Positions 1 to 59,510 of a DNA stretch of 64,000 nucleotides are shown piece by piece. Every line of letters starts with the position of its first letter. The stretch's first letter is position 1. The stretch is from Azolla caroliniana (taxonomy: Eukaryota; Plantae; Polypodiophyta), in NCBI GenBank assembly GCA_043228905.1, contig JBHGNT010000020.1:12710001-12774000 (forward strand), given 5' to 3'. Under the pieces are notes generated by a model. That model did not search any database. It had not been told where the DNA came from and worked only from the letters and a program-made list of their open reading frames with translations. The translations under genes and the position numbers were made by a program.

Positions 1-167
1 GTTTCCGGCCCGTAGTACAAAACGGTGCCTCTCGCACCCATTCGGGATCCGTCCGGATCTGGAACGGCATACCGTTTCCAGTCCGTCCGTCCACACTATG
101 CTTATTTACAACCATACTTAATTAATTCCTTCACTCCGTATTTTGGACTCCCTGCCGACCGGTAACA
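1..167 (-). repeat. 3' LTR of the gypsy element (partial)
   Basis: Matches 9437-9603 except at positions 38, 39, 152, 157 and 158. Begins TGTTACC on the minus strand at 167. Confidence 0.93.
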
Positions 168-219
168 CATGGCACGCCCGTGGGACAGTACCTTGTACGT
201 CGAACCCTTCTCGGCCCCT

Positions 220-2874
220 TCATTGTTCACCCAAATTGTCCAAAATACTTTGTTCCAGATTTTCCAATTGTTCTTCCGGTTGTGGTTGTTGCGGCTGTGC
301 TTGCTGCTGCTGCTGTGGTTGCGGTTGGGACTGTGGCTGCTCCGGCTGCTCCGTTTGTTTCTCTGACTCCGGCATCTCCGTTTGACTGCTACCGGTCCGG
401 TCTCCTTCCAGTAACGGTTCCTCATCACTGAGGTTGACCGTAACCGGTTCTCGTGCTTTCTCTTCCCGGATCCGGGACCTCTCGTAGCTTTCAAACTGGA
501 TCTGCGCCTCCAGCCTGTCGTCGTCCAGCTGAGCTACAAGTTGCCGGACTTGCCCTAGTTGGTCCTCTGCCAAGGCTTGAAAGTCTTCGGCCAGCTCATC
601 TCTTATGCCGGTGAAGTCTTCGGAAGTCAGCATATAGCAATCATCTCCCTCCTTCCGCCGGTTCTCTACGTTGGCCCGGAGCAATTGGAGTTCCGCCGCG
701 TTCGTGGCCCACTTGGTCCACCATTTGACGGAGCCGTTGTCAATCAAGCTCTTGGTCTGGTTCAACCAGGCCCGCATGATATCCTGGATGCGACTTGCTC
801 CAATTTGCGCTCTACTTTCCACCACTTGTCGCTCCTCCTTCAACTGCTTGATGAGATTCGCCGTATCCTCCGCATGCTCTCTGTAGCGCGTCAGCTGCCC
901 TTGATATGTTGTCTACAGCCTCTGCAGTACCTCCGCCGCTCTTTCTTTTTCCGCCTGCTGTTGCCTGAGGAGCTCTGTCCGAACCTTCTCCGCCTCTTCC
1001 AACCGTCTTCTGGTTTCCGCTTGTTCATTAGCGTATGCCGTTGCGGTCCGATCAACTGCTTGCCGGAGCTCATCCGTCCGTTCCTTATGCTCCGTTTGCA
1101 ACCGTTTATACTCCCGGTGCAAGTGCTCAAATTCCTCCGTTTTTTGTTTGAGCTTGCCGTTGATCTGGCGATGGTTCCGATCCTCCCGGTCCTTTACCTG
1201 CCGGAGTTCCTCTTTCAGGCGCTCTACTTCTGTTTCGGCGTTTCTCCGGAGTCTGTCCTTCTCTTGCAGCATTTTCTCCTTTTCCTCCTTGAGCCGGTCG
1301 TACGCTTGGTGGCCTTTCCGTAAGCTCTCCTCAGCCCGGCGTAGATTCTCAGCAGTCTTTTTGAGTTCTGCCTCCGCTGCCGTCTTCAACTCTCTTTCGC
1401 GGCTCCTCAGCGCTTCTTGGGCAGCTAGCTCATCCTTTAAGTCCGCCAGCTCTTGGGCTTGTGCCGCATTTCTCTCTGGAACGGTTTCCGTTGCCGGGGT
1501 CTGATTGCTATGTACGGGTTGATCTGACGCTTTATTCTGTACATTGCCCGGAGTCACCGGTGCTTGGACTTGTGTTGTCAAAGCCAATTGAGCCATTTCC
1601 CTTGTGACCCTGTCCAAGTCTTGTTCAAGGCTCCGGATTCTGGACCGGGCCGTCTCTAGATCTACGGTTGTGACGAGCAACCGTTCGTGGTGCGCTCTCT
1701 CCTCCGCCTCTATGTACTCGACCGCTCTGGCGATCTGCTCGCCTACCCACCGTAGCCACATGCTACTGGTGCCTTGCTGCTGTACTGGTCGGGTCGGCTC
1801 GTTCACTATGGAATTGTCTGGCCTGAGTGCCTGTATCTGCCGTTCTGGTTCTACTTCTTGGCCGCCGTGTGTGCTGGCTGGGCTCGCCGGCTGTTGAGTT
1901 CCGGTTCTCGCCGTCTCCGGAGCCGTTGGAATGCCTTCTTCTATAGAAGTCGTCAAGCCCGGTTCTATACACACCGGTTCCGGTTCCTCCCTTGTGGTTT
2001 GCCCAGGTTGAGTTGGGGGCGTTTCCTCCTTTTGCGGGTCCGAACGCTCCCCCGCTGTCCCGGCGGTCCTACTTCTTGACCGTCGTTGGAGGTGCTCTTC
2101 TGGCTCCTCCGTTTCCTCTTCCTGGGTAACGGCATGTTTCTGTGCCGTCAAGGGTTCCGGTTCCTTCTGTCCCGGTCGCCGTATGGTTATCTTAACGGGT
2201 CCCACCGGTGACACCTCCTCCGGTTCTGGGAGCCGTTTCTTTCCTTTCGTCGCCTTCGACGCCAGCAGCTGCTGTCGTTTGGACGCGGGCTTGGAAGTGC
2301 TTCCTTCCGATACTCTTGGCCGCTTCTTTGGCTGAACGGTCTCGACCGGCGGCACGAGCAATGTTATCCACTGAGCTACAGCATGCCACAGCTTCCGGCC
2401 CTCCTTGCCGTCCTTTCCTCGTACCATGTCGATTGTCGCGCACAAACCGTCTGCAATCAACACCGGCCAGTCCACCTTGATCCCTTCATAGGTGGCTATG
2501 ATCATCCCTGCCCGATTTTTTGGCATGACAGGGGGTCGGGGGTACACGTGGTCGTACTCATGGAGCACTCGAGCTATCTCCCTGAATAGCGGATCTTCAC
2601 CGCCCTACGTTCGATAGCCTTTGCCGGCTACAGAGTACTCACCGAAATATCGGATGAGTTGCTCCGAGGTTGGGTTATCAATCTGAAAAATACCTCCCTC
2701 CGGAAGGCCTGTTAGCGCACGGATCGCTTCTTCGGTGATGACTTCTGTGTCGAGCTCCTTGATGACCCGGTCGGCTTCTCTGTGCGGTGGTGCCTCCATG
2801 ATGGTCAAGAACCCATCCAGTCCGTGTTGCCTGAACCATTTCCTGGCCGCTTCCGACAGCGTTTGTGGTTCCAT
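220..2874 (-). pseudogene. Gypsy 3' extra ORF (~884 aa): PMD/plant-transposon-like N-terminus, basic patches, long coiled coil, Q-rich C-terminus; two in-frame TAG codons
   Basis: ORFs 2605-3186, 913-2568 and 220-843 share one frame. The gaps read through without further stops (KGYRT*GGEDPLFREIARVLHEY; LQRL*TTYQGQLTRYREHAEDTANLIKQLKEE). First plausible ATG is at 2874 (MEPQTLSEAA). Confidence 0.8.
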
Positions 2875-3262
2875 GTCTGCTTTGAGGTCGGGGAAAGATG
2901 GCGAGGTAGAGTGGTGATGAGAGTGAGAGCGAGAGAGAGAGCGAGAGAGAGAACGTTCCGAACGTGGGGTTTCTCTAAGTGCAGGTTCGCGTTTGCTAAG
3001 CTTCCACTGCCTTGGTGCTTCTGTGCTTCTTGGCTCGCGAAAAAAGAAGGTCTCCATGCGTTCTTCTTTTTCTCTGTGCGTCTTGGCGCCTTTTTCGAGC
3101 ATGCGCACGTCGTGTACCAAATTAGTATTAAGCAATGTGGCGGCTCTTAAATGCCCACTACGTACCTTTTCGCTCCTTGCTTTCACGTCCGTTCATACCT
3201 CGATTTTTAATGTTTTTTTTTTTTTTTTTTTTTTTTATTATTTTAAATGACGGTGTGTGATC

Positions 3263-6200
3263 TTACACATCCGTAGGTCCCTTCGGACCCTTACCGTTTT
3301 CCTTACGGGTTGCCGTGTCTTCCTTCGTCTCTGCTACGGGTTCCCCGTCGTCTTTTTCTTCCATCCGTACCGCTCCCGGACAGGTTCCCGGTATAGTGCC
3401 GGTGAGCTGCATAAACGGGTTCTTTGGCATCGGTCCTTTATAGGGCTTTAGTCTAAATCCGTTCACCCACTTGCCTAGTACTTCACCGGCAAGTGTCCCT
3501 ATCTGATAGGACCCGTTGTATTCCCGTGTCAGCCAATACGGGCCTGTCCATCTAAACCGGAGTTTACCCGGCATCTTGCCCATCCTCGTTTGGAATACTA
3601 GCACCGGCTTTCCGATTTCGAACATCTTTTCGTTACCTTTCCGGTGACGGTCAACGAACGCTTTCCGTCGTCGTTGCTCCAGTTCCATGTGTAGGATGCT
3701 GGCCAGCCGTTGCTCCTCCAGTTCGCATAGTGCTGCTAGCCGCATTTCCTCCGACTTCTTTTCATTCAGCCGTTCCCGTAGTTGGATCCGTAAGCTTGGT
3801 ACCTGAAACTCCACCGGCATGACCGCCTCTAAGCCGAATGCTAACCGGAACGGTGTGGTCCGGATACTTGTTTTGTATGCCGTTCGGTACGCCCATAGCG
3901 CGCTATGGAGCTTTGTATCCCAGTCCGTCCGGTTTTCATTGACGGTTTTGCGGAGAATGTTCTGCAGCGTTTTGTTGGTGGACTCTGCTAACCCGTTCGC
4001 TTGTGGGTAGTACGGTGTGCTCCGTTTATGGACCACGGCATAGAACGTTGTTAAGCTTTCAACTACCTGGCCGAGGAAGTGCCCTCCTTGGTCGCTAATT
4101 AATTCAATCGGACATCCATATCGGCACCAAATGTTCTCGTACAGGAATTTTGCTGTGGATGACGCGGTATTGTCTCTCAAGGCCTTACCCTACACCCATT
4201 TAGTGCAATAATCCGTTGCCACGATGACATAACGATTACCCGTTCTCATTGCCGGTGGCTTGAACGGTCCGACAAAATCCAACCCCCACTTCTGGAATGG
4301 CTCTAGTGGAAGTACCGGTTGGTGTGGCATCCGTGCTTGCTCCGTAGGCTGGCCCATTCGTTGGCATAGGTCACATTCCTTAGCATACTTGACGGCGTCT
4401 TTTAACGTCGTGGGCCACCATAAGCCGCTCTGCCATACTTTCCTTGCCGTCGCTTCCCCGGCATAGTGTCCTCCGGCAACCCCACAGTGTGCTTCCCGTA
4501 AGATTACGTGTTTCTCGTCACTACGGACTGCCCGTCTCCATATTCCATCTGCTCCCTTGTGGTAGAGAGTGTCCCGTAACAGACAGAAATTGCGGCTTTG
4601 CACCGCCAGTCGTTTCCTCTCGTCCCGGTTCATTTCCTCTGGTGGCAGGCCCGTGCTTAGGAACTGGTGCATGTTTGTCAGCCACCTATCTTCTGATGCC
4701 ACCGTGTCGTCCGCTGCCGTTTCCGGGGTGATACGGAATAACTCTGCGTCCGGGAATTCATCCGCTACTCCGTCGCCTGATTCTCCGGACTCTAACCGGC
4801 TCAGGTAGTCTGCTACGGCATGCTGGATACCGGGCCGGTGAAAGATCTCGAATTCGAACTCCTGCAACAGCAAGGTCCAACGGGCCAACTTACCGGTCAG
4901 GGACGCCTTGGACACTAAGTACAGGAGCGCCGAGTGATCCACATGAAAGGAGAACTTCCTTCCCAATAGGTAATGACGAAACTTTGTGACACTGTAGATC
5001 ATGCCCAGGGCCTCCCGTTCTGTCGTCGAATAGTTCTTCTCCGCTTGGGATAGCTTCCGGCTGGCGTAATATACCGGCCGGTACCATTTAGGCTCCGTAA
5101 GTTGCATTAAGGCGCTACCGATAGCGATGTCGGAAGCGTCAACGAACACATGAAATTCCTTGCTCCAATCCGGAGGCTGCACGACGGGTGCTTGCGACAA
5201 AAGTACCTTCAGGGCATTGTATGCCTTATCCTCCGTATCCGTCCATTGGAACGGTGTCCGATGTACCGCGGTGTGTAATGGTGTAGCCAAGTCAGCCAAG
5301 TGACGGAGCATCCGGCTGTGCCACCGTATCTGTCCTAAGAATTGGCTTAGTGCTTTGGCCGTTTTCGGCGCTGGTGCCCCGAGTATCGCGTTTACTTTGT
5401 CCGGGTCGACCGCAATGCCCTCCTTACTTACAATGTGTCCCAGTAAGATTCCACTTGAAACTCCAAAGATGCATTTTGCTGGGTTTAAGCTTAGCCGGTA
5501 TAACCTACACTTTTCAAGGCATAACCGTAGGTGCTGCAAATGGTCTTTTCCCCGGCTATAGACTGCAAAATCATCCAGGAAAACCTGCATGAAGGCAAGG
5601 ATGTATTCGCCGAAGATCTCCATGATGATTCGCTGGAAAGTTGTTGGTGCCGTTTTTAGGCCGAACATCATTACTTCGGCCACAAACACCCCCCATTCGG
5701 TGACGAACGCTGTCTTCTCCTGGTCGTCGGGGTGCATCCGGATTTGATTGTATCCGCTGAACCCGTCTAAAAAACTATAAACTTCATGGCCGGCGACGGC
5801 ATCCAGTACTCCATCCGTGAACGGAAGAGGGAATGCATCCGTAATTGTGGCTGCATTTAGTTTGCTGTAATCTACACACACGCGGATTTTACCGTTCTTC
5901 TTTGGGACGACGACGATGGGGCTCAGCCACGTCACTTTCTTTACCGGCCGGATGAAGCCCACTCTTAGGAGTTTGTCAATTTCCTCCTTCACTTTGGCGG
6001 CGTAGTTGGGGTTCATTCGGTAACGTCTTTGCGCCACTGGTTTCGCGTCCTTGCCTAAGTGGATCTGATGCTGATATAATTGAGGGTCCAGCCCTCGCAT
6101 GTCTTCGTATGACCAGGCGAATACGTCGCGAAACTCCGTGAGAAGTTTGATCATCGCCGCTTTATCTTCCGGCTTCATTTCTTTGGCGATGTGTACCGGC

Positions 6201-9133
6201 TTTGATTCGTCCTTGCTTCCTAGGTTCACTTCGTCGAGCTGGGATGTTTTTACCCGTTGGGAAATGGCCATTTCCTGTTCCAACGCTTCCTGTGCTTGCC
6301 GTAATTCCCGAATCGAATCTTTGTCTGGTTCGGCTTCGGTTTCGTCCCGCTGCGGCAAGTATGGCGCTACGGCCTCAGCTACGTCAATCTCGAAGAGTGG
6401 TACGATCTTCGGGTGTTCCTCCAAGTACTGGGCTTCTTCATCATCTGCCAACCCTTCAAGCATGTTCACGCATTCCGCATACAGCGGTGTGCATTCCTTA
6501 CCGTTGCTCGTCCGTGGTTGTGTCGGTACCCGGACCTTGGCTTTTCCGCGCCGGAAGGTAATCATATTTTTCCGCCAATTTTGCTTGATGTGTGCTGTTT
6601 TCAACCATGGTCTGCCCAGCAACAGTGGGTACGCGCCTTGCGCCTGTAGCTGCAGCACTACAGCCGAGATGTGAAATGTGTGACCTCCTATGGTGACTTC
6701 CAATTTCCGTATTAAGCTCGTCGGCCGTACAGAGCTCGTATCCGCCATCCGTAGCCAGAACGGACATGGCTCCCATTCATGTATACCCAAGGCATCACAC
6801 GTGCGGAGGCTTATTACGTTCACCCCGGAACCTCCATCGATTACTATGCCGGGAAGTTCGTGCCCTTTGACAATAGCTGTAATCGCCGGACTACTAGTGT
6901 CCACCACCGTCGGTCCCTCCTCCGGATTCGAGAAGAGGACTGGTGCCGGTGGGGCTATACCGTCTGTCATGCCCGTTTTTAGTCCTTCCGTAAATCGCGG
7001 CACGAGCTGCAAGAGTCTTCCTAACGGCAACGTGATCTGACATTCTTGCAGTGCTTGCCATGTCTCGTTTTCTGGGTGGCTACCGCCGGCACTCCCTATG
7101 GTATTCGCCTTTTGCCGTTCCGCGTCCGCGACGTTCCTTTCATTGGCTTCCTTCACCCATTCCGTCGCCTGTTTTCGTATGGCCTCTTGTGTTTCCCACT
7201 CTTTGGCCATGCCTTTCGACCGTGTGGTTACTTGCTGTATATCCGCCACTTCCGAAACCACCATATTAACTGTTGGTCGTTTCTCGTAGCTCTTTACCGG
7301 GCACTGGTTACTGTAGTGGCCTTCCTGCCTGCAGTAGTAGCAGTACTCTTTACGGGTATTGCTGGATTCAGCATTGCTGGTAGCCGGAGTCGGTCCCGTA
7401 GTGAGTGGTGCGTTCTGTGTCGGTTGGCTCCTTGGGGTTCCATGTTCCGGGTCCCTAGGGTGACCACCTTTCTTGAAATTACGTTTCTTATTATTCTTAT
7501 TTTTATTTCGGTAGTCCGGTCGTGGTGGATCGTAAAATCGGTCGTAGTCCTCCTGGTGCCTTCGGTAACCAGGGGAATGGTCTCTGTCGTATTGCTCGTG
7601 TCGTCTGTTGGGCTCCCGGTAACGGTCCGATCGCTCATACCGGTCGTAGTTATCATGCCGATTCCCGTACCGGCCATCATTCTCTTGTCTGTCTCCGTAC
7701 CGGAAATCCTGTGCCGGTCGGTACCGGTTCATTTTTTGCCAACGATCGTCCTCTTCGTCTCGGCTGCTTCTTGGCTCGATCCGTCGAACGGGTGGTGCTT
7801 GTCGGTTTAACAGGTTATACTCGCACCGGTCCGTTGTATGACTCTTGGATTGACAAATCACACACTGAGTTCGCATGGTGCACTCCACTGCCGAGTGTCC
7901 GGCATTCAAGCAGATTGTGCATTGAATTGCCTGCCGGAACCGGAGATCTTCCTCGGTGGGTAACGCCCGTTGCAGTGTTCCCAGTGTAAGCCATGAGCTT
8001 GACTTTTCCATTTCTCTGACCCGGTCAATGACCTGGTCAATGGTGCTTCCTCGAAAGTCGATTACCGTACACACCGTGCGTAACGGTTCCCGGAGTGCGT
8101 TTAAAAATATCGTCCGTAATTCCTCCTCCGGGGGTGCACGGGCAAGCTGGCTATGCATTCGTTGGAAACGGATGACGAATTGGGGAATGCTTTCCCCTGC
8201 CTCCTGTCGGATCGTATAAAACAGGCCCACCATTGTCGTCTGGTCGACCTCCTTGTGGAAAAAATGCAAGAATTTCGCTTTTAATTCTGCAAAGGTTGTG
8301 ATGGTCGCCGGGTCCTGCGTCCGCCGCCATCGTGTCGCTGGTCCTTCCAACGTGACCCCGAATTCCGCTATCTTCGAGCGTTCTTCTTCCTCCGGTGTCA
8401 TTCGCTGGGACGTGTGATTTGCTTCCCATGTCTGCTCGAAGGCATAAACATGCGCTTCCGCGTCCGGGTCATCGCGATACTTTGAGTATTGGAACGGCAT
8501 GTCGTCGTCCAGTATTAGGCCGCGGTTTAGTAGCGTTTGTTGATATCTTTCCGGTTTTCTCTCCGGTTCTTTTGCCGGTGCTTTTTCCGGTTCCTCTTCC
8601 GGTTCTTTTTCCGGTTCCTTCACCGGCTCTTCTTCCGGTACCTTTGCCGGCTCTTTCATTGGTGTCGGTGGCTTTGCTTCTTCCACTTCCGGTGTTGGTG
8701 GGTTGACTGCTTCCGTTTGCGGTTCCGGATAGCCCTGGTTGAGCGGTTCCGGTTCTGGAGTCGGCACGGTATCCGACCCGTCGTCCTCCGGGCCGCCGGG
8801 GGTATCGTTGCTGCTCCGGTAGTTCGTGTGCACGCTGTATCCCCCTTCGGAATCCGATTCGTAGGCTAAAAAGGCTTCTGCCTCGTTTTCTCCGCTTGCC
8901 AGCGCCTCCAGGAGGCGTTCGGTTTCCCGGAGACTACTTAGACTGCTTCCGTCGTCCTGGTCGCGAGTTTGCTGTAACCGAAGATATTCCTCCGCGACTC
9001 TCCGGATCTCGTTGGAGAACGAACGATCCGAGCGAATTTCGTGCGCTGCTTGCTGGAAAGTCTCACGCCGTCTTTGCCGTTTGGCGAGGCGTCGAGCTCG
9101 GTCTGTAACCAAGTCGTGCGTTGGTCTAGTCAT
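3263..9133 (-). CDS. Gypsy gag-pol polyprotein (~1956 codons) with one premature TAG at 4190-4192
   Basis: Retrotransposon gag, CCHC knuckles, protease VIDGGSGVN, RT (LDGFSGYNQI...FLDDF), RNase H (VFVDASDIAIG), integrase HHCC plus WGLDFVGP...SDQG...NGLAE, and GPY/F. KWV*GKALRDN is the usual KWVE motif with GAG>TAG. Confidence 0.93.
8548..8660 (-). repeat. Degenerate 12-nt tandem repeat encoding (K/E)EPE units in the gag N-terminal region
   Basis: Repeated ccggttc-type units on +. Translates as EPAKVPEEEPVKEPEKEPEEEPEKAPAKEPERKPE. Confidence 0.75.
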
Positions 9134-9162
9134 CCATTACCGTCGTTCGCTGCGAGAAAGCA

Positions 9163-9178
9163 GGAATCGTGGTCGCCA
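9163..9178 (-). promoter_or_regulatory. Primer-binding site (TGGCGACCAC...), probably tRNA-Arg
   Basis: A few nt inside the 5' LTR. Complementary to a tRNA ending ...GTGGTCG-CCA, as recalled for tRNA-Arg(UCG); the isotype is inferred. Confidence 0.7.
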
Positions 9179-9184
9179 AAACTG

Positions 9185-9603
9185 TGTTATTCGCTGGCCG
9201 GACAAGGCCTAACACAAGGTGTCACGGAGACACTTCACCAAAGGGTGATTACGGCATAGGATTAAGATTCAACGATTACACCGACTTACGTAGGTTACAC
9301 GATTAGAATGCTTTGGTTAATTACACGCGTAAGATATAACAGTAATTACATAACGGAAATCAACACAGAAGTATAAACACCATATGCTCTATTAATTATC
9401 CGCTGTGATTACAATGGGGTCCGGGCCTTTAAATAGGTTTCCGGCCCGTAGTACAAAACGGTGCCTCTCGCACTGATTCGGGATCCGTCCGGATCTGGAA
9501 CGGCATACCGTTTCCAGTCCGTCCGTCCACACTATGCTTATTTACAACCATACTTAATTAATTCCTTCACTCCGTATTTTGGACTCCTTGCCAGCCGGTA
9601 ACA
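9185..9603 (-). repeat. 5' LTR of the gypsy element (~419 bp, TGTTA...TAACA)
   Basis: Inverted TGTTA/TAACA ends. Duplicated at 1-167. TATTTAAA-like box on minus at ~9428-9435. The left boundary could be 9183. Confidence 0.9.
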
Positions 9604-9693
9604 ATTTCGCCTCTCATTTCTATGAGGTGTCTACTCCAAAAATTTGGCATTTTAGTGAATCTGTGTTCATCAAATAATCTGCAAATTGATGGC
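9604..9693 (+). pseudogene. Fragment of old chromovirus integrase (host of both young insertions)
   Basis: Reads FASHF..(fs)..RCLLQKFGILVNLCSSNNLQIDG. After removing the copia element it continues QTKRVNHILEQY at 15513, matching the HPQTDGQTERVN motif. Confidence 0.75.
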
Positions 9694-10149
9694 TGTAAAG
9701 AGTAACGTGCGGAAGCAAGTATGAAGACCGAACAGAAGGAAGAAAACTCAGGTTTAATGGAGAGCTTGAGCTTACGCAGTATACGCGGGAGAGACAGAGA
9801 GACAGAGAGAGTGATAGAGAGAAAATACAAGAACTATATTCAAAAAAACTCTATTCACCATTCTCTGTACATATGTGTGTTCAATGAACACTTTTATACA
9901 AGTCCTAGAAGGACTGACCGAAGTACTGACAGTACTTCAATGCTCACTAAGAGCTCCTACACTAACTCCCAAATATATTCCTCAAGGAATATCTTTCCTA
10001 ACGGCCTCCCGGTTTACGCACCGATCCGGCCCTACCTACGCACCGGTCTGCATACCGGTTTACGCATTCGACCTAACCGATCGGTCCCAACCGATCCGGT
10101 CCTCGGCTTCTTCAGCCGATCCGGCCGATGTTGAGCTTGTCTCTCAACA
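9694..10149 (-). repeat. Copia 3' LTR
   Basis: Same length as 15052-15507. Five substitutions spotted by eye. Confidence 0.95.
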
Positions 10150-10161
10150 CTCCCCCTCAAG
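10150..10161 (-). promoter_or_regulatory. Copia polypurine tract (CTTGAGGGGGAG)
   Basis: Purine run directly abutting the 3' LTR TG on the minus strand. Confidence 0.85.
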
Positions 10162-10644
10162 CTCAAGTTGAGGCTCTTCGGGATCTTCGGGCTCACAGCT
10201 CCAGTTCCTCCTGGCTTCACGCCTCGCTCGCGCTCCACGACTTGTTCGACTCCGCGCGCTTCGACCCTTCCGGTCAGCTTGTCTGCTCATGTGGCCCTCA
10301 TCAGCCCTTCTGCTATTGCGGTGTTGACGCTTCTTCTACTGCCTTTTCTTCCGCTTGGGCCTCGGTTGATTCAACGTGTCTGAATCAAACATCCGAACCG
10401 ACTCGGCTACCTCCGATCGGTTTTCGCTCTCGTCCGAGTTGGCTGTCTCCAACTCGTCTTCGGTCTTCTCGCCCTCGGTGGCTTCATCTTCCCCATGCGT
10501 GGTTGGCTTCGGCTCTCGGTTGCTCCCCTTCTGTCCGCTTCCGGACTTTTCCGCGGGTCCGCCCTCGGCTTCTTCAGCCGATCTGACGTCGAACTCGACA
10601 ACCGAGTCAACCGACTCGGTGGTGTCGCGGTCTCCGCTCCTTTC

Positions 10645-13600
10645 CTACTTCCTTGCTTGGTCGTTCGGGACTGTTCTCCCCCTCAAGTTTGGCACGTCGA
10701 GGTGACGCAATCTGAGCGCACCTGAGAATTGCCGCAACTTGTCCAGACCAAGAGGCTTGGTGAAGATGTCGGCAATCTGCCGATCCGTCGGAACGTATTG
10801 AAGTTCGACTTCACCGGAAAGGACACGCTCACGAACGAAATGGTAGCGCACCTCAATGTGCTTGGTCCGTGCGTGGAAGACGAGGTTCTTCGTGAGTTGG
10901 ATGCTGCTGAGGTTGTCGCAGTAGATCGTCGTTGGATCGGACACCTCCTCTTGCAGGTCCTTAAGTAGCCGCTTCAACCATATGGCTTCGCATGTCGCGA
11001 CAGCCGCTCCTCGATACTCAGCTTCGGTGCTCGACAGTGCAACTATCGGCTGCTTCTTACTAATCCACGCGATCGCGGCACTCCCGAGGGAGAACGCGTA
11101 TCCAGACGTGGATCGGCGATCGGCAGCGTTGCCAGCCCAATCAGCATCGATGTAGCCGACTAACTGCACGGTTGCACCGGTCCGATATAGCAATCCCCGG
11201 TCCTTAGTGTCGTTGACATACCAAAGTATGTGTTGCGCACACTAAAGGTGCTCCTCGGTAGGTCACGCCATGAACTGACTGATCACTCCGACCGGATAAT
11301 TGAGGTCGGGTCGGGTGATGGTCAAGTATATGAGGCTTCCGACAATTTGTTGGAACCTCGTCGGGTCGCATACCTTTCCCGTATCGGGACAAAGCTTGAC
11401 GGTTCTGTCCAGAGGAGTCGAGACGGACTTACAGTCGGCCATCCCGAATTTGAAGAGCATACTCAGCACGTAATGATGTTGGCTGATCAATATGCCTTCG
11501 GGGGTACGGATCACTTCGATCCCGAGGAAGTAATGAAGGTCCCCCAGATCCCTCATGTCAAATGATGCCGCAAGCTGGAGCTTCACGCGGTCGATTTCAC
11601 CAAGGTCGGCGCCGGTGATGACCAAGTCATCAACATATAGTAAAATACTAACGAAGCCGACCTTTCCGGATGAACAGGGAAGAGTCCGATTTTGACGTGA
11701 CGAAGCCCATCCGACACACTTGTTGCATGATCTTCGCGTTCTAGGCACGCGGGGCTTGCTTCAGTCCGTAAAGGACTTCTTCAGACGGCATACTGCCGAG
11801 GAGTTCGTTCCTGAGTGAAATCCGGGGGGTTGTACCATGTACACCTGTTCCTCAAGGTCACCTTGCAGGAGCGCATTCTTTACATCCATCTGATGTAAGT
11901 GCCACCCCTTCGCCGCAGCTACTGCAAGCAAAACACGGACGGTCGTCATTTTCGCGACCGGCGCAAATGTCTCATCGTAGTTGATGTCGTGTTTCTGCGC
12001 GTAGCCCTTTGCCACTAGCCGAGCCTTGTACCGGTTGACCGAGCCATCGATGTTGTACTTGACCTTGTACACCCGCCTACACCCGATCGGTTTTACCCCT
12101 GTTGGTGCGCCAACCAGGTCCCAGGTCTCATTCTCCACCAATGCGTGCATCTCTTCCTCCATCGCGGCACACCAATTCGTGTCTTTAGCCGCTTCTGCGT
12201 AGCTCTCCGGCTCACGCACTTCCGCTACACGGGTCATGTACGCATAATGATGCGCCATGTACTCGTTGTATCCGAACCGCAAAACAAGGTTCTTCTGGCG
12301 GGTAGATCGGCGTAATCTAGCATTAGCCGATGTCGAGGCCTTCTCGGTCGACGCGGACTTCACCTTTAAAGACCCGTCACCGGTTCCCTCGGAGTCGGAC
12401 TCGCGTCGGTCTGACTCGTTCCTATCCGTGCCGGAATCTGACACCTTCTTCTTCCCTTTCTCTTTGCGCGTAAGCCGTCTCCTCAACTTCCTGCGCGGGG
12501 AATGCATGGCCGAGTCTCCACTACTCGCCGGCTCTTCATCGAACTGGTCGTACCGACTCAGTCGTCCAATCGGTCGACTTGGTCCACTTAAACAGAGCGA
12601 AATCGGACTCTCTTCGCGGGTCTCGATTTCGGGCTCATCTGGAGGCATCTCGGCCTCTCTGACCTCATCGTCAGAGCTCGGATTGGAGTCGAGGTTCGGA
12701 GTCGGGGGCTGGTACCAGGACGCGGACTCGTCAAACACAACGTCGCGGCTGACACGCGCTTGTTTGGTGCGAGGGTTATAGCACTTATAACCCTTCTGCT
12801 CGTCCGAGTAACCGACCAAGATGCATTTCTCGGCCTTTGCGTCCAGCTTCCTCCTTTTCTCCTTCGGTACATGCACATACGCAATGCTACCGAACACCCT
12901 CAAGTGTCGCAAGTTCGGCTTCGTTCCGAACTATAGCTCGTGCGCCGACACTTTGTCTCCGATCCGGTTCTGGATGTATACCGCAGTCCTTACTGCCTCG
13001 GCCCAGTAGAACTTGGGCAAGCTCTTCTCCTCCAGCATTGCCCGTGTCGCTTCCACAATCGACCGATTCTTCCTCTCGGCCATGCCGTTCTGCTCCGGCG
13101 TGTATCTACAACTGAATTCGCGCTGAATTCCCATTTGTTGTAGATAACCGTTGAATTGACCAGAAAAGTACTCTTTCCCGCCATCCGACCGCAGGCACTT
13201 GATTTTTCATCCCGTTTCCGTTTCCACAAACCCTTTGAGGTCCCGGAAACAGTCGAAGACTTCGCTCTTCCTCTCAATGAGGTAGATCCACGTGTGCCGC
13301 GTGTGGTCGTCGATGAAGGAGACGAAATATCGGCTCCCGCCAAGACTAACGTTTTGTGTCGGCCCCCATACATCGGAGTGTATAAGGTCGAGCTTGTTCC
13401 GGCTCCGGTTTCGCTCGTTTGGGAAAGGAAGTCGGTGTTGCTTCCCGAGCTGGAAGGCTTCACAAATTTGTGCCTTTCGGCCACTAAATTTGGGCAATCC
13501 TAACACTACCTGTTTCGATTGCAGATCTTGAAGCCGTTGGTAGTTGACGTGGCCTATCCGCTTGTGCCACAAGTCGATGTCCGACTCGGATTTTTGTCCC

Positions 13601-14979
13601 TTCGCGAACATTGCGATGCCGCCGTCAGTGGAATCGAGGATGAACATCCTCCCGTCTCTGCGCCCTTGCGCAATCACACGGCCTTCTTCCTCAATGAAGC
13701 ACCCGAGGTGTGTAAACCGAACCTCCATCCCTTGGTCGACGATCTATCCGACCAAGACCAAGTTCTTCGTGATTGTCGGAACGTGCAGCACGTTCATGAG
13801 TTTCCCTTTCTGCCCGACATGGCTAAGGGGAACTTCTCCGACATTCACGATCAGATGTGGAGTGTCGTCTCCAGTTGCGACTACTCCAGGTTGTATCGGT
13901 TTTTCAAGGTACGAGAACCACTCCTTATGACTCGTCATGTGGTTTGACGCGTCGGAGTCTACGTACCACACCTCGTCTGATCTCGGGGTGGTCCGTTTCA
14001 TTGAGTTTTCTTCGTGTCTCGTCACGAAGACAGACCCTTCTCCGGCTCTCCCGGAGTCTTTGGCGTAGTGTGATCGCTGCCGATTTCCCTTGTCGGTATG
14101 TCCGAAGCCGTTTCCGGAACCGGTTCTCTCCGAATCGGCGCGCTTCTTCCAGCACTCACTTTCCCTGTGGCCTTTCTTGCCACAGTACCAGCACTCCGCG
14201 ATGGCCTTCCCTTGCCGGTTCTCATCGCTTCGACTCCCCCTGTTTCCGGAGGGTCCGGAGTTGCTGTCGGCATCACTTCGGTGCCTTCTTCCTTGATCTC
14301 GTCGGCCGCCTCCATTGCACGCCGACTCGCCTCGTCCTCCACGTCCACGGGGCCTATCTCCCTCCGTGTATAGCATTCTGCTGTCGGTGTGCGTGCTTGT
14401 AGACGCACCCGCGTGGTTCTCCTCTACCAGGAACATTGACTGTAAGTCGAAAAAGGACGGCGTATTCTCCCGGGTACACACAGCCGTTCGGAACGCTCCG
14501 AACTTCGACGCCAAACCTCCGAGACAGATCTGGACCATCTCGCTCTCCTCGATGTTCCCCTCTATGGAGGCGAGGGAGTCGCAAATATCCTTGATCTTCG
14601 AGGTATAGTCCGCCACCGACAAGTCGCGTTGTCGTAGGTTGTTCAACTCCTATCGGAGCTGAAGCTTCCTAGCTGTGGTGCTCGCAGCGAAAATCTTCTT
14701 CAGATTTTCCCACGCACCCTTCGGCGTCTTTGCATCCCGAACATAGCTCAATAGTTGTTCGCCCACACACGACGCGAAGCAGTATAATACCCTGCTCGCC
14801 GATTGCTCCCACGACGGGAAGTCTCTATGTGTCGATTCGGGTGCCGCGTCATTAGCTCCTTCGACATAACTCCAGTAGCCATGTCCAAGCAGGTACTGGT
14901 GCATCTTGTAGGACCAAGACGCGTAGTTGGTTCTGTCGAGCTTCTCTGTTGGAAGCGAGCTCGCCATGCCTCTATCCAT
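10645..14979 (-). pseudogene. Copia gag-pol with several nonsense codons and frameshifts
   Basis: Gag LDRTNYASW, CWYCGKKGHRESEC, protease WYVDSDAS, LWHKRIGH, integrase [37 protein letters not shown], RNase H DADWAG...HIEVRYHF. Stops at 14650, 13744 and 13207, plus frame changes. Confidence 0.93.
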
Positions 14980-15039
14980 CGTTCTTCTTGTTCTTCTTCG
15001 TCAAGCTATGTCGGCTGCAGAGAGGTTCTCAACCCTCGC

Positions 15040-15051
15040 GCTCTGATACCA
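15040..15051 (-). promoter_or_regulatory. Copia primer-binding site, initiator tRNA-Met (TGGTATCAGAGC)
   Basis: gctctgatacca on + immediately before the LTR start at 15052. Confidence 0.92.
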
Positions 15052-15507
15052 TGTAAAGAGTAACGTGCGGAAGCAAGTATGAAGACCGAACAGAAGGAAG
15101 AAAACTCAGGTTTAATGGAGAGCTTGAGCTTACGCAGTATACGCGGGAGAGACAGAGAGACAGAGAGAGTGATAGAGAGAAAATACAAGAACTATATTCA
15201 AAAAAACTCTATTCACCATTCTCTGTACATATGTGTGTTCAATGAACACTTTTATACAAGTCCTAGAAGGACTGACCGAAGTACTGACAGTACTTCAATG
15301 CTCACTAAGAGCTCCTACACTAACTCCCAAATATATTCCTCACGGAATATCTTTCCTAACGGCCTCCCGGTTTACGCACCGATCCGGCCCTACCTACGCA
15401 CCGGTCTGCGTACCGGTTTACGCATTCGGCCTAACCGATCGGTCCCAACCGATCCAGTCCTCAGCTTCTTCAGCCGATCCGGCCGATGTTGAGCTTGTCT
15501 CTCAACA
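15052..15507 (-). repeat. Copia 5' LTR
   Basis: Duplicate of 9694-10149. TATAAAA on minus at 15250-15256. Confidence 0.95.
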
Positions 15508-29666: not shown

Positions 29667-29984
29667 TAAGGTTGCTCGTCGGAGACTAGAAACTCATGTA
29701 CTAAGTCTTGTAATAGTGTTGTAAGCAAAAGTTGGGCCAAGGTGCAAGGGGTACAGTAAAAACATGGGTTGCAAGGGAGTTAGCGAGAAGTTCCAGGCCG
29801 AGGTGCATGTGTTACCAAACAAAGTATGGCTTACAACAAAAGAAGACACTCCTAACAATAAGAAGTAAATTGTGTGTGTGGCCATTGTTATGATGAGGAG
29901 AGAGAATGTGTATGTCTTTTACTCATCACTAAACTCACAATCTCTCTCTATATGTATGTATGTATGATATGTATGCATGCATGT

Positions 29985-30048
29985 ATATATATACATATAT
30001 ACATACATACATATATATATATATATATGTATATCTTTCTCAATCATA

Positions 30049-30109
<61 letters not shown>
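29985..30109. repeat. (TA)n/(TG)n/(CATA)n microsatellite cluster
   Basis: Read directly. Explains the YIYIYI artefact in ORF 29874. Confidence 0.9.
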
Positions 30110-30111
<2 letters not shown>

Positions 30112-30203
30112 CCTTTGTCTTTATTATAACTTCTTTGTATCCAAGGTATTTTTTGTTCACTAACATTGTCTCATTAGTTTTTTTACATAAAATTCTCCTA
30201 GCC

Positions 30204-32855
30204 ATGTTTCTTGAGCTCCTTCATAATAACAAGGGCAATTTCTATAATGCTATTACTAATACTAACAATGATGATGGATATGGCTATACCCATGATTATG
30301 ATCCTCAAGCCCTAATGTATGTTGTTGATCAATTGGATCTCTCTAATTATAGTAGTAATATCCATTCCTCATCCCTAGATTCAGCTAATTCAAGTAGCTA
30401 TATCAATTCCTCCTCCTTCAATCCTACTAATCTCATCCTTAATTCTAATAATCCTATCCTTAATCCCAACCCTAATCCTCCTCCTCTTAATAACTATGTC
30501 ACAAGCCAGGAGGCATCCACCATGAGCCATTTGCCGCGCTCAGTACAAGGAGAGCCTCATGGAATATTAATCAAGCGAGAGGCCATTAACAATGATGAGG
30601 ATTCCTTATTATTATCCCCTGAAAAATCTGGAAGGAATTACAATGGGGAGGCTTGTATGATGATGACTCATGGAGGAAAGATTCATGAGGCTCCATTGAT
30701 CCTTCATGTGCATGAGGACGATGAGGAGCAAATCAGAGTAGTAATCAGCAGAGATTCATGTAAGGATGATAATGATAGTAGTGATGAAGGATTAATTAGC
30801 TACAGAAGTAGTGATTGGGAGCAATTGGGCGATCAAAATAACTCCTCCTCTGTTTCTAATTCTGAGCTAAACCCACACTCAAGCACAACTACTACCACAT
30901 CATCAATGGAGCATAGCAACAATGACACTACTAATTATGGCAGTAATTGTGGGCCTCATGGTTCCAATTTGGGGGGTGAGCCAAATAGAGCCAATTTGCC
31001 CATTATCAAATGTGGTGCCTATCATTCTAGTCATAGAGACAATATTAGGGCCAAATCATCACGTCCGGACATTAAGTGTGAAACGGAGCCCTTCCTCGGG
31101 GACATAGACACGCGCGACTTAAGGGAGTCCATGGGCTCGACTCAACATGTGCCCATGCCAAGTATACCAATGCCAATGGCTATGCCTAAGACCCGAACCC
31201 GCAAGAGAGGCCGTACGAGCTCGACTAGAAATAGTGAGGACTTGGAGAACCAACGAATGACCCACATTGCAGTCGAGCGCAACCGACGGAAACAAATGAA
31301 TGATCATCTCAACATCCTCCGCTCGCTCATGCCCTCGTCTTACATCCAAAGGGTAATCAATCTAGTCTCTCCATGATTGTATTTTTTTTTTTGTTTTGAT
31401 TTTGGTCGGGGGGGGGTGTCCTCGTGGTATATATTAAGGCCACATTCTTGTTTCATTTTATCATTTTAAAACCAAACTTAGACTTAGCTATAGGCTCGAC
31501 ATTAAACCTTCGGAATCATCCAAAACCTTTGGGCCTTAGGCCCCAAAGGCTCTAACAATGATGCCTCCGTTATTAATGCCATTCTTACAAGGCTTGCACT
31601 TCTTGTCCTGACATTTTCACTTTGGTCCCGAAGTATTATATTACTTAAAGTTATCTATCTAATATGTATTTGTTTCTAGGTTCCTAACCTACTTTCAAAC
31701 CCGTGCTTTTTTCTACTTCACTAGATGGCCCAAGGTGTGTCTCATTCCCTCACGAAGTTACACACCCCCCCTCTCTAACTAAGTTAAGCTCCAATAGTTA
31801 GTTGTGCCACCTTTCTATTTCAATGGCAACCATTCTAATTGGAACAACATGCTCCTCATCTTTGTTTCTTAAACTCACCTATTTCTTTTGAAGGTTAGAG
31901 CTTAGCTAACCACCCTTTACCTATCCCATTATTAGTGTGTCCAATTGATCCCATTCATTTCGCGAAAGGTTGGTTGGGGAACATTCTAATTTGATTCAAG
32001 GATACATAGGCTTCGGCACAATTCTCTCTCTCTCTCTCTCACCCACAAACAAATATGCCACATGCATTCCACAATTTCATTAACTACAGTATATAATGCC
32101 TTATGATATCACCATCTCCACATTTATTATTACCCAAGTCCATCACTCTCTTGCAAATGTACTTATCCACAAGCCCAAAAGTTGAATTCCTTATGTGGCC
32201 AAAAGGTGCATGTATGTTTGACTTAGTTTCTTGACACTCTTCTCACGATTCTAATCTCTAAGGGAATTTCTAAGTTATCAATGTGTGATGTTGTTAGGGT
32301 GATCAAGCGTCCATCATTGGAGGTGCCATTGAATTTGTTAAAGAACTCGAGCAAATATTGAGCTCATTGAAACTCCAAAAAGAGAGAAACGAATTTCGAG
32401 ATTCTATATCTTTGCATCAAGGAGACGTGTTGGTGGGAGACTTCAAAATGTCCAAAGAATTGGCATGTGAATCAAACAATATGGAGTGTACTGTGACAAG
32501 CGATTCTTGTGAAATGGATTCTAATGTAGAAGTAAATTTGGTTGGGAGAGTGGCTATAATAAAGGTTTTGGCTCAAAGGAAGCCACATCAACTTTTGAAT
32601 GTGCTTTCTATGATCGAAAGCCTTCACCTGAAGATCATGCAAGTTAATATAACCACCATCGAAAATAGTATATTGTATTATCTCAATGTCGAGGTGAGTT
32701 ACCATTCTTAACATGGATTTATATAACTATACCAAGTTTAAGAGAATGTTACTAATCACCAATGTTTATATTTGTAGGTGGAGGAGTCGTCTCAATTGAC
32801 CCTTAGTGCCATCAACATAGCCAAATCCATTGAAAGTCTATTTAGGCTATTTTAG
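30204..32855 (+). CDS. Group Ia bHLH transcription factor (SPCH/MUTE/FAMA-like) with C-terminal ACT-like domain, ~540 aa, 3 exons
   Basis: Exons 30204-31352, 32298-32693 and 32778-32855, with GT-AG introns. Spliced bHLH reads [34 protein letters not shown]|[24 protein letters not shown]-like NVEVNLVG...[13 protein letters not shown]...IMQVNITT. Start codon inferred. Confidence 0.9.
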
Positions 32856-34782: not shown

Positions 34783-35699
34783 AGAGTCTGTACTATGTAG
34801 GAAGCTGGTTTTGAATAGCTCCCAAAGGCGTGCTGAAAAGAGTAGTAGTAAGTTCATTTCTAGACTACTCGCATGGGTTCGGTTCGAGCCGAACAGAGTG
34901 TGTCTGTCATATGGGACTGGAGTTCAGAACGGGGAAAAAAATGGACAGGCATCTCTCTCTTTGGCCGTTTAGAGCTCGACATCGAGATAAAGATTACTAC
35001 AATTCCATTCATCAGAACATCCCTAACAGGTTCTTCATGCCGGGAAAGGAAAGAATGAGGCTTGTGGCAGCAGCCCCTTTCCTTTCTTGATTTTGTTTTT
35101 TATTTCTTACATTTAGATATAAATTTGGATTTTGATTTGGTTATGGTTGGATTCTTTTGTATTTTTCTGATGTGGTAATCTCGATATATTGAATTCGATC
35201 GTGGTTTAGCAATGTGTCTGACCAAAAAGAGCTAGAATCTAATGTCAATGATTCCTAAGATATTATTGGCATGCAGGCCTAACAAACATAGGCTAAAATT
35301 GTTCAGGACTGTCTGTCAAGAGACACTTGAATTGGTACCTAATCATATCTTGTATGTATTGGAAGCGATAGCACATGGAATTGGCCAAGTAGACAGACCT
35401 ATAGACCAGAAATCAGAAAGATGAACAACAAACACGATGAGAAACTCATAAGGATTTATACAAGTCTTGATAGGAAGAAGAGGATTTGCATATACTCTAC
35501 ATCAACTTTCAGGGAAGTGAAAATGTTCTCTTTGCCCATCCAATATGTTCTCATTCGATCGAATCAACAAAGAATAGAACCCATTCGTGTCTCTCAATCC
35601 TCGTCAAATGTTATTTTTGACCAAGGATGAGAAGAGCTCTTTGTGCAGAACCCCCCATAACCAGCGAAAAAGAATGATCACTGCAATCTTTGCTGTACT

Positions 35700-37838
35700 A
35701 TGAGTCTTCATGAAGGCCCCATTTCTATTCACTCGGCTCACATCCTTCTAAAGAAGTATATAATCACCAAAGACATAATATCAGGTAGAAATCTTTACTC
35801 TCTCATCACAAAATCAGGGTTGCAAACCAATACATTTTTGGGTAGCCATTTCATCAGATTGTTTTCATTTTCTGAGAGTTCGTATGAATCAGAGCTCGTA
35901 TTCAGTAGGCTTATAGAGCCAAATGTGTTCAGTTATACAGCTATAATAGCAGCTTTCAATGAGCATGGCGAAGGAGAGAAATCTATTCCAATGTTTCATA
36001 GAATGCAAGAAGCAAATGTTGGACAGGATGAATATGTGTATGTCCTTGCCCTCAACTCATGTGCTATGATGTCCTCTTTATCTTTGGGAAAACAAATTCA
36101 TGCCCAAATTCTTGGAAACGATGCTAAATCAGATGTATTTGTATGCAATGCTCTTATTGATATGTACGCCAAATGTGGTGACTTTAAAGGTGCACTTACT
36201 ATGTTTGGGAAAATGCCAAGACGTGATTTGATAAGCTGGAATGCCATCATTGGTGCTTGTACACGAAATGATCTTAACGAGAAAGCTCTTTGCTTTTTCT
36301 ACAACATGCAAAAAGAGGCATTTGAGCCGAGCCCTGTGACTCTTGTCAATGTTTTAAAAGCTTGCTCTGCTTTAGAGTTCTTGGATAATGGAAGGGTGAT
36401 CCATGCTTTGGTTGTGGAAGAAGGGTTTGAGTTTGGCACTATCATTGGGAGTGCTCTTACCAACATGTATGCGAAATGTGGAGAACTCACCGATGCTTCT
36501 TGTGTGTTAGAAAGGCAACCAAATCGACATATAGGAATATGGAATGCATTAATAACTGGCTATACTCAACATGGAAGTGGTGAGAAAGCACTCAAGCTTT
36601 TTCAAAAGATGAGTAACAATGGATTTATGCCTAATGAGGTCACGTTCGTTTGCATTTTGAAGGCTTGCACTGGCATGGCATCATTTGATGATGGAAAGCT
36701 AGTCCACATCCTCATTATTGAAAATGGTCTTGAACAAGATTGTTTTATCACGAGCTCACTTATCGATATGTATACCGCAATTGGGAGCTTAAATGATGCA
36801 AGGAGGGTTTTTGATATGGTTTTAGAGCGTAATGAACTTTCCTGGAGTGCAATGGTGATAGGGTATGCTCAGCATGGTTGCAGTGAGGAGGCACTTCACC
36901 TGTTTCAAAAAATGCAGCTTGAGGATGCAAGGGGCGATCTCTTTACATTTGTTTACATTTTGAAATCCTGCACTGACATTATAGCCTTGGAACAAGGCCT
37001 GTTAATCCATTTTATTATAATTGAAATGGGAATCAAGCTAGATTCTTGCCTTGGAAGTACCTTGATTGATTTCTATGCCAAATGTAGTAGTGTCAAAGAT
37101 GCAGCGAATGTGTTTGTCCACTTGCCAAAGCAAAATGTTGTAACATGGAGTGCTATGATTGGTGGATACACATTACAAGGGAATCACGAAGCCGCTCTAC
37201 AGTCTTTTAAAGACATGAAGCATCAAGGCTTGGAGCCAGATGATGTAATGTTTATATCCCTTCTATCTACATGTGCTCAGATGGGATTAGTCAATGAAGG
37301 GAAAGATCTCTTTGATGTAATGACAAATGAATTTGGTCTCGTGCCCTCGGGTGAGCATTACAACTGCTTGGTTGACTTACTTGGTCGTGTAGGGAGGTTG
37401 GAGGAAGCTGAAGCTTTAATGAAGCTTGCACCAGCTGAATCCTCTTTTGTAGGATGGATGACATTGCTTTCACACTGTAGAGCACATGGCAGAGTTGCTT
37501 TGGCAAATAGATGTTTTCAACACATTATAGCATTGGATTGTGGTCATGGTTCAGCCTATGTGCTTATGTCAGATATTTACACTGGTGCAGGAATGTGGGA
37601 TGATGCAGCTAGGGTATGTAAAATGAAAAACTTCATTCAAGCATGGAAGAAACCAGGGAAAGCTACTATAGAGATAAACAAGACAGTACATACATTTGTT
37701 GTTGGAGATAGAAGTCATCCACAACAAGAAGACATTTATTCAAAGCTTAGCAACTTGAACTTTCAACTACTGATGGGAGGGTATGTACCACATGCAACAA
37801 CAGTAACCTCAGATGCTCACAATACATTTATGCAGTAA
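35700..37838 (+). CDS. PLS-class pentatricopeptide repeat protein with E/E+ domain, no DYW (organellar RNA-editing factor type), 712 aa, intronless
   Basis: Repeated ALIDMYAKCG / SWNAII / TFVCILKAC triplets. E domain HYNCLVDLLGRVGRLEEA...WMTLLSHCRAHG. PG box KKPGKATIEI and HTFVVGDRSHP...GYVP, then stop. Confidence 0.92.
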   Translation: MSLHEGPISIHSAHILLKKYIITKDIISGRNLYSLITKSGLQTNTFLGSHFIRLFSFSESSYESELVFSRLIEPNVFSYTAIIAAFNEHGEGEKSIPMFHRMQEANVGQDEYVYVLALNSCAMMSSLSLGKQIHAQILGNDAKSDVFVCNALIDMYAKCGDFKGALTMFGKMPRRDLISWNAIIGACTRNDLNEKALCFFYNMQKEAFEPSPVTLVNVLKACSALEFLDNGRVIHALVVEEGFEFGTIIGSALTNMYAKCGELTDASCVLERQPNRHIGIWNALITGYTQHGSGEKALKLFQKMSNNGFMPNEVTFVCILKACTGMASFDDGKLVHILIIENGLEQDCFITSSLIDMYTAIGSLNDARRVFDMVLERNELSWSAMVIGYAQHGCSEEALHLFQKMQLEDARGDLFTFVYILKSCTDIIALEQGLLIHFIIIEMGIKLDSCLGSTLIDFYAKCSSVKDAANVFVHLPKQNVVTWSAMIGGYTLQGNHEAALQSFKDMKHQGLEPDDVMFISLLSTCAQMGLVNEGKDLFDVMTNEFGLVPSGEHYNCLVDLLGRVGRLEEAEALMKLAPAESSFVGWMTLLSHCRAHGRVALANRCFQHIIALDCGHGSAYVLMSDIYTGAGMWDDAARVCKMKNFIQAWKKPGKATIEINKTVHTFVVGDRSHPQQEDIYSKLSNLNFQLLMGGYVPHATTVTSDAHNTFMQ

Positions 37839-59508: not shown

Positions 59509-59510
59509 CA

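What the first reader, a model, noticed from the sequence alone, without database searches (positions are those of the whole stretch)
220..2874. Hidden ~884-aa accessory gene carried 3' of pol by the gypsy element
Seen: three separately called ORFs are one reading frame interrupted by only two TAG codons (2605-2607, 913-915), and the linkers are stop-free. It lies in sense orientation between pol and the 3' LTR, the env position. The N-terminal ~150 aa (WFRQHGLDGFL...ITEEAIRALTGLP...GIKVDWPVLIADGL) is followed by basic patches (KKRPR, KGKKR), a P/E/T-rich linker, a long coiled coil and a Q-rich tail. No transmembrane stretch is obvious. Established: some plant gypsy lineages carry extra ORFs, including plant-mobile-domain (PMD) proteins whose host relatives MAIN/MAIL1 act in silencing. 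Inference: this is a non-env, probably nuclear accessory protein, for example an anti-silencing, targeting or scaffold factor, and may define an undescribed fern/lycophyte lineage.
Basis: partly seen in the sequence, partly recalled or inferred. Interest (0 to 1): 0.8.

Follow-up and report, generated by a model that had tools for sequence, protein, structure and literature searches.

The report
Retrotransposon accessory gene with VANC-like fold
A plant jumping gene, likely from a fern, carries a large extra gene that is broken in this copy but under purifying selection in its relatives, and its front domain is predicted to fold like VANC21, a transposon protein that lifts host silencing, so it likely helps the element stay active (untested).

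Summary
Confirmed. One 884-codon frame (2874-220, minus strand) lies between pol and the 3' LTR of a Ty3/gypsy element, with two TAGs. Both stops are private to this copy: sister contigs and loci have sense codons there. Intact relatives exist (972 aa at 90% identity; ~1000-aa frames after pol). dN/dS is 0.08-0.27 overall and about 0.07-0.11 in the N-terminal domain. The real start is probably 61-76 codons further upstream.

Verdict: a new variant of a known kind, likely a nuclear DNA-binding anti-silencing or activating factor; function untested, and no VANDAL-type motif arrays were found. The scan noted VANC-fold genes in likely liverwort retrotransposons before (unreviewed).

The parts
220..2874 (-). 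Extra ORF 3' of pol (884 codons from ATG 2874), broken in this copy by TAG at 2605-2607 and 913-915
   Evidence: intact relatives
2875..3102 (-). In-frame N-terminal extension (ATGs at 3102 and 3057), basic, kept in frame in relatives; likely the real start
   Evidence: dN/dS 0.26-0.87 in this part, so constraint is weak
2341..2874 (-). Conserved globular domain (aa 1-178), mainly helical, predicted VANC21/PMD-like fold; conserved basic residues (K85 in 95% of aligned members, R/K121, K/R160)
2233..2325 (-). Basic patches after the domain matching simple nuclear-localisation patterns (aa 184-214)
   Evidence: pattern match only; a basic patch after the domain in all 7 long members checked
1771..2340 (-). 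Pro/Glu/Thr-rich variable linker (aa 179-368)
   Evidence: about 50% identity to L001, dN/dS about 0.25
430..1770 (-). Helical and coiled-coil-like region plus conserved C-terminal helical block (aa 369-815)
   Evidence: simple heptad score; 64-68% identity to L001/L002; not folded here
223..429 (-). Gln/Glu/Pro-rich tail ending in a short conserved acidic-hydrophobic motif just before the stop
3103..3262 (-). pol-ORF spacer with an A-rich tract and a TATA-like stretch at about 3146-3153; possible internal promoter
   Evidence: seen by eye; not tested
3263..9133 (-). Single gag-PR-RT-RH-INT frame with one TAG at 4190-4192; no second (archaeal-type) RNase H and no chromodomain hit
9169..9178 (-). 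Primer-binding-site-like stretch starting with TGG just inside the 5' LTR, conserved in relatives
   Evidence: tRNA partner not tested
9185..9603 (-). 5' LTR (about 420 nt)
164..204 (-). 41-nt block invariant in the window and 5 loci, at the place of the polypurine tract and running 4 nt into the LTR; not purine-rich
1..167 (-). Start of the 3' LTR (runs off the window)

Best explanation
This is a conserved accessory gene of a plant Ty3/gypsy retrotransposon family, disabled in this copy by two stop codons, whose product is predicted to carry a VANC21/plant-mobile-domain-like fold and likely acts as a nuclear, DNA-binding factor that keeps the family's own copies expressed against host silencing. 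Shown: the frame, its position, intact relatives, purifying selection, and the absence of a transmembrane stretch. Predicted: the fold of the N-terminal domain. Inferred: the domain binds a short motif in the LTR or pol-ORF spacer; the basic patch imports it into the nucleus; the long coiled coil oligomerises it or recruits host chromatin factors; it is made from its own internal promoter and works in trans, so broken copies such as this one can be served by intact ones.
Confidence: 0.5

Rival explanations
1. The same fold and nuclear location, but the protein tethers the integration complex or the element's DNA to chromatin (targeting or scaffold role) rather than countering silencing.
For: The integrase has no chromodomain hit, so targeting could be supplied by another protein. 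A long coiled coil suits a tether. No VANDAL-type motif arrays. Strong conservation of the domain fits a fixed partner.
Against: The only solved structure it resembles is an anti-silencing factor bound to DNA. No interaction or insertion-site data.
Confidence: 0.2
2. A cytoplasmic RNA-binding or scaffolding protein that chaperones the element's RNA or particles, or suppresses small-RNA silencing.
For: Basic conserved residues, a long low-complexity linker and a coiled coil fit an RNA or condensate scaffold. Chaperone roles have been proposed for plant env-like proteins (PMC7264820). The element lacks a normal polypurine tract, so unusual priming might need a helper (speculation).
Against: NLS-like patterns in 7 of 7 long members. 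The structural match is to a DNA-bound protein.
Confidence: 0.15
3. The VANC21 match is a chance helical resemblance; the domain is an unrelated new fold and the function is something else.
Against: The match covers the whole domain (169 of about 178 residues), stands above all other rows in two searches and appears in a second program. Language-model neighbours are ATHILA and Transposase_32 clusters (0.84-0.85, lead only).
Confidence: 0.1
4. An env-like membrane protein, or a neutrally carried host-gene fragment.
For: It occupies the env position, and coiled coils occur in Env proteins.
Against: Highest 19-residue hydropathy is 0.89-1.31 in 7 long members, with 1-3 cysteines. No match in the viral structure library at E up to 0.001. 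dN/dS is far below 1 and the ORF follows this family's pol or pol end in the loci that reach that far. No relative carried an informative host-gene name.
Confidence: 0.05

Closest known systems
VANC21 of Arabidopsis VANDAL21 (PDB 9LNK/9LNJ; PMC5735166 passages; structure paper doi 10.1266/ggs.25-00096 not held, not read)
   Same: Predicted domain aligns over 169 residues with VANC21 residues 305/306-533/558; accessory gene of a transposon; conserved domain plus variable region plus coiled coil.
   Different: VANC is carried by Mu-like DNA transposons and described as dicot-specific; here it is an LTR retrotransposon. Identity 8-10%, no DUF1985 hit, no tandem motif arrays found, function untested.
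PMD-plus-coiled-coil extra ORFs of Tat/Ogre elements, PMD-A (PMC4408406 sections 6 and 11; PMC5418596 passages; PMC6317226 passages and two supplements)
   Same: Gypsy extra ORF built of a conserved N-terminal domain and a coiled coil; PMD is reported to share the VANC fold.
   Different: Those lie 3' antisense or 5' sense in elements with an added RNase H, in gymnosperms and angiosperms. This one is 3' sense, the element has no second RNase H hit, and no member matches PF10536.
Athila 3' sense extra ORFs (ATHILA ORF-1 PF03078; Transposase_32 PF20167; PMC6317226, PMC11728184 passages, PMC7264820 first third)
   Same: Same position and orientation; single gag-pol frame without chromodomain or added RNase H; sunflower Athila ORF has a predicted NLS; nearest named clusters in the ESM Atlas are these two families.
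   Different: No HMM match to either family; Atlas scores 0.84-0.85 are leads only; no transmembrane stretch; longer (about 950-1100 aa); the element lacks a polypurine tract; lineage not placed by phylogeny.
Host MAIN/MAIL1/MAIL2 PMD-C proteins (PMC5418596; bioRxiv 2024.09.27.615353 passages)
   Same: Probably the same fold superfamily, by way of VANC21 (two-step inference).
   Different: Host genes of angiosperms, not mobile; not compared directly here because no PMD sequence or model was available to the tools.

Membership tests
Functional extra ORF of an LTR retrotransposon | Kept in many copies at a fixed place, intact in some, under purifying selection | tested here: met
VANC | DUF1985 domain by Pfam | tested here: not met
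   no hit in 102 domain members or in long members
VANC | VANC21-like fold | tested here: inconclusive
VANC | Encoded by a Mu-like (VANDAL) DNA transposon | tested here: not met
   carrier is a Ty3/gypsy LTR element
VANC | [quoted passage not shown] | tested here: not met
   only a post hoc 8-nt motif with 3 non-coding copies
VANC | Sequence-specific DNA binding and loss of methylation | not testable with these tools
   needs EMSA, ChIP or methylome data
Plant mobile domain (PF10536) | Match to the Pfam model | tested here: not met
Plant mobile domain (PF10536) | Structural identity with PMD models | not testable with these tools
ATHILA ORF-1 (PF03078) / Transposase_32 (PF20167) | Match to the Pfam models | tested here: not met
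ATHILA ORF-1 (PF03078) / Transposase_32 (PF20167) | Remote similarity by language-model features | tested here: inconclusive
   scores 0.84-0.85, 113-124 of 256 features shared; under 0.9 is a lead only
Athila lineage (REXdb) | Single GAG-PROT-RT-RH-INT frame, no added RNase H, no chromodomain, 3' extra ORF | tested here: met
   against the lineage table
Athila lineage (REXdb) | PBS mostly for tRNA-Asp (72%) | tested here: inconclusive
   PBS-like site located; no tRNA in the window to pair it with; from recall it looks like an Arg-type site
Athila lineage (REXdb) | RT/RH/INT phylogenetic placement | not testable with these tools
   REXdb sequence supplement too large to read; no labelled references available
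Phygy / Selgy | No extra ORFs; polyprotein spans nearly the whole internal region | tested here: not met
   2.9-kb extra ORF present; lineage description
env-like ORF | Transmembrane helix | tested here: not met
   maximum 19-residue hydropathy 0.89-1.31 in 7 of 7 long members; the usual cut-off near 1.6 is recalled

The most novel reading that the evidence does not exclude
LTR retrotransposons of seed-free plants encode a VANC-type, sequence-specific anti-silencing protein. The VANC, PMD, ATHILA and Transposase_32 domains would then be one ancient superfamily that spread in gypsy elements before seed plants. Most 'env-like' ORFs of Athila-type elements would be chromatin counter-defence factors, and the host MAIN/MAIL genes would descend from them.
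Probability: 0.3. Interest if true: 0.85.

Novelty: new variant of a known kind. Interest (0 to 1): 0.55.

Why it matters
The function of extra ORFs in plant gypsy elements is a long-open question, and the papers read here describe sequence-specific anti-silencing proteins only for DNA transposons. Ikeda 2017 (PMC5418596) calls the ancestry of gypsy versus host PMD 'fully open' and describes PMDs from angiosperms. PMC4408406 places the first Tat extra ORF in gymnosperms. A VANC/PMD-like domain in a large family from a likely fern would push the fold back among retrotransposons. It also gives a compact, intact, testable protein (a 178-aa domain with invariant basic residues) with which to ask whether retrotransposons run VANC-style counter-silencing.

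Tried and rejected
No whole genome is held for this window, so no copy count in the same assembly.

Sequence searches: Pfam found nothing for the ORF, its long relatives or 102 domain members beyond scattered weak hits. PDB sequence search gave only ribosomal uS19 at E 0.03-0.1, rejected as chance since the structure searches did not list it. A search for longer proteins bearing the domain returned 6, all unnamed and none with a Pfam domain; only the 7987 best candidates were scored.

Structure searches: Foldseek against PDB and BFVD gave nothing at E up to 0.001. The coiled-coil and C-terminal regions were not folded, so their fold is untested. The Atlas held no model for a structure search.

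Expression: no RNA holder listed. Run X16 (RNA is a guess) has short contigs over the ORF, pol and LTR; X24 gave none. Run X15 (kind unknown) has uneven contig depth: high over the ORF's 3' part, low over pol, middling over gag, while DNA run X7 is fairly even. The tool states that contigs cannot rank parts, so I do not count this as evidence. One joint from 8390 to 3172 (depth 2, 21-nt side) was not taken as a splice.

Other rejected readings: programmed read-through of the TAGs, because sister copies have sense codons there; a swap of the ORF onto another pol lineage in L005, because it reads as a nested insertion.

Literature: ten searches listed no paper describing this family or a VANC-fold ORF in a fern retrotransposon. 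The VANC21 structure paper and Sasaki 2022 were not held, Steinbauerova 2011 was not read, and the REXdb element table and sequence file could not be opened, so a match to one of its 314 extra-ORF groups is not excluded.

Full report
Observation. The minus strand from 2874 to 220 is one frame of 884 codons with stops only at codons 90 and 654, both TAG. The other five frames have 14-39 stops, and none of 2000 resampled sequences had two or fewer. It follows a single gag-PR-RT-RH-INT frame (9133..3263, one TAG at 4190-4192) and precedes a 3' LTR starting at 167 that differs from the 5' LTR at 5 of 167 positions. The frame is open upstream to 3192 with ATGs at 3102 and 3057. Relatives keep a similar in-frame extension, under weak constraint (dN/dS 0.26-0.87), so the protein probably has 945-960 aa.

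The stops are private damage. P0002 (972 aa, 90% identity, whole length) and P0219 (990 aa) are uninterrupted. Of 24 loci from metagenome contigs, L001 and L002 have ~1000-aa stop-free frames directly after pol; the others are partial or broken. Eleven loci had a long frame over the first stop (10 Gln codons, 1 His) and eight over the second (8 Gln). That count could not see copies with a stop there, because it used stop-free frames. The laid contigs have no such bias: every contig covering 913 and 915 differed from the window in 4 of 4 runs, and every contig covering 2607 differed in the 3 of 4 runs that had any cover.

Selection. NG86 dN/dS between the window and relatives was 0.08-0.27 in 19 of 24 loci; one was saturated and four gave no qualifying frame. 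Most dS values exceed 1, so I also used closer pairs. L001 against L004, L005, L007 and L015 gave 0.07-0.11 for the N-terminal domain and 0.26-0.50 for the rest; these pairs share a branch. The closest pairs (dS 0.02-0.05) gave 0.46-0.62, as expected if copies decay after insertion. The domain is 80% identical between the window and L001, similar to gag capsid (78%) and below RT and integrase (89-92%).

Anatomy. The protein has a globular domain (aa 1-178), basic patches that match simple NLS patterns, a variable Pro/Glu/Thr linker, a long coiled-coil-like region, a conserved helical C-terminal block and a Gln-rich tail. Members at 50% identity in the domain keep this whole layout, and a 540-aa member at 37% keeps domain, basic patch and linker. 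No member has a transmembrane-like stretch. A profile of the domain finds 303 clusters at E up to 0.001 among 1.84 billion representatives, down to about 22% identity. None of those checked has a Pfam match or an informative name. Several Lys/Arg positions are conserved, K85 in 95% of the members that cover it.

Mechanism. VANC21 binds a 9-base motif and removes methylation from its own transposons (PMC5735166, passages). Its domain is reported to resemble host PMD proteins (bioRxiv 2024.09.27.615353, passages; PMC13547354, passages and section 10), and VANC and Athila proteins are predicted to oligomerise through coiled coils. I infer a nuclear, oligomeric DNA-binding factor that sustains expression of its own family in trans (0.5). 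Against this: no tandem motif arrays in the non-coding parts, strong conservation of the domain, and no functional data. An 8-nt motif occurs twice in the LTR and once in the pol-ORF spacer in the window, L001 and L005 (3 observed, about 0.09 expected), but I chose it after seeing these sequences and L014 lacks it, so it is only a candidate. A TATA-like stretch in the spacer suggests an internal promoter (by eye). Rivals are a chromatin tether for integration (0.2), an RNA or particle scaffold (0.15), an unrelated fold (0.1), and env or a passenger gene (0.05).

Comparison with what is known. Extra ORFs are common in non-chromovirus gypsy elements: 47% of Athila elements in the REXdb table have a 3' one (the table's columns are shifted; the CDD table lists Athila hits as 3' forward), and only 21.4% of extra ORFs match a known domain (PMC6317226, passages and two supplements). 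PMD-plus-coiled-coil ORFs are known in Tat/Ogre elements of seed plants (PMC4408406, sections 6 and 11). The element's layout fits Athila, and Athila-classed elements dominate gypsy in Tmesipteris ferns (PMC9916801, passages), but I could not place it by phylogeny. The REXdb paper does not mention ferns. The host is inferred, not shown: a trichohyalin-plectin-homology gene (a family I recall as flagellar), a PPR E+ gene and a bHLH gene lie in the window, and earlier scan notes also say 'likely fern'. Other papers seen: PMC11963269 (first of five parts), PMC11728184, PMC12859917, PMC12844716, PMC5418596 and bioRxiv 2026.08.24.746577 (passages), PMC7264820 (first of three parts). Ten searches listed no description of this family. 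Unreadable supplements (REXdb tables and sequences, bioRxiv supplements) and the unheld VANC21 structure paper may bear on novelty.

Earlier scan notes. Two unreviewed notes report VANC21-like genes in retrotransposon LTRs of a likely liverwort. I read them after my own VANC21 hit and did not test them. Eight notes on this genome describe the missing polypurine tract as a tRNA-Arg 3' copy; I confirmed only the invariant 41-nt block.

Verdict. A real, selected accessory gene of a large, Pfam-negative family with a probable VANC/PMD-like fold; this copy is dead. New variant of a known kind; interest 0.55.

Noticed in passing
window 164-204 (minus): No polypurine tract before the 3' LTR. A 41-nt block is invariant in the window and 5 loci that are about 70% identical elsewhere, and it folds into a hairpin. 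Earlier scan notes read it as a tRNA-Arg 3' copy for second-strand priming.
   Followed up: partly
window 9524, 9528, 88, 92, 3194 (minus): An 8-nt motif G[AG]ACGG[AG]C occurs twice in each LTR and once in the pol-ORF spacer, also in L001, L002, L003 and L005; chosen post hoc; candidate cis element.
   Followed up: partly
window 1-9603: CCGG is 2.5-4.8 times over-represented in the ORF, pol, gag and LTR, against 0.1-0.6 in host DNA and the LINE and 1.3 in the copia element. Unexplained.
   Followed up: no
window 9694-15506 (minus): Young but broken Ty1/copia element about 90 nt upstream of the gypsy 5' LTR; its LTRs are identical over their first 300 nt.
   Followed up: no
L005:1-3830: A different gypsy element (pol 27% identical to the window's) sits at the 3' end of this family's pol, upstream of the extra ORF; read as a nested insertion.
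   Followed up: partly
window 170-9690, run X15: Contig depth in a run of unknown kind is high over the ORF's 3' part, low over pol and middling over gag, unlike a DNA run. It could reflect separate transcripts, but contigs cannot show this.
   Followed up: no
window 207: Many contigs (69 in X1) share the block before the LTR but diverge behind 207, with ends resembling the ORF's last codons; suggests further subfamilies with related ORFs.
   Followed up: no
window 29862-32711, 35661-37838, 40090-41415 (plus): Host genes: a bHLH gene, a PPR gene with E and E+ motifs, and a trichohyalin-plectin-homology gene.
   Followed up: no
window 47552-53374 (plus): A LINE-like element with a zinc-knuckle ORF1 and a reverse transcriptase ORF broken by stops.
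   Followed up: no
window 58096-59580 (minus): A 494-codon frame without a Pfam hit at E up to 0.01.
   Followed up: no
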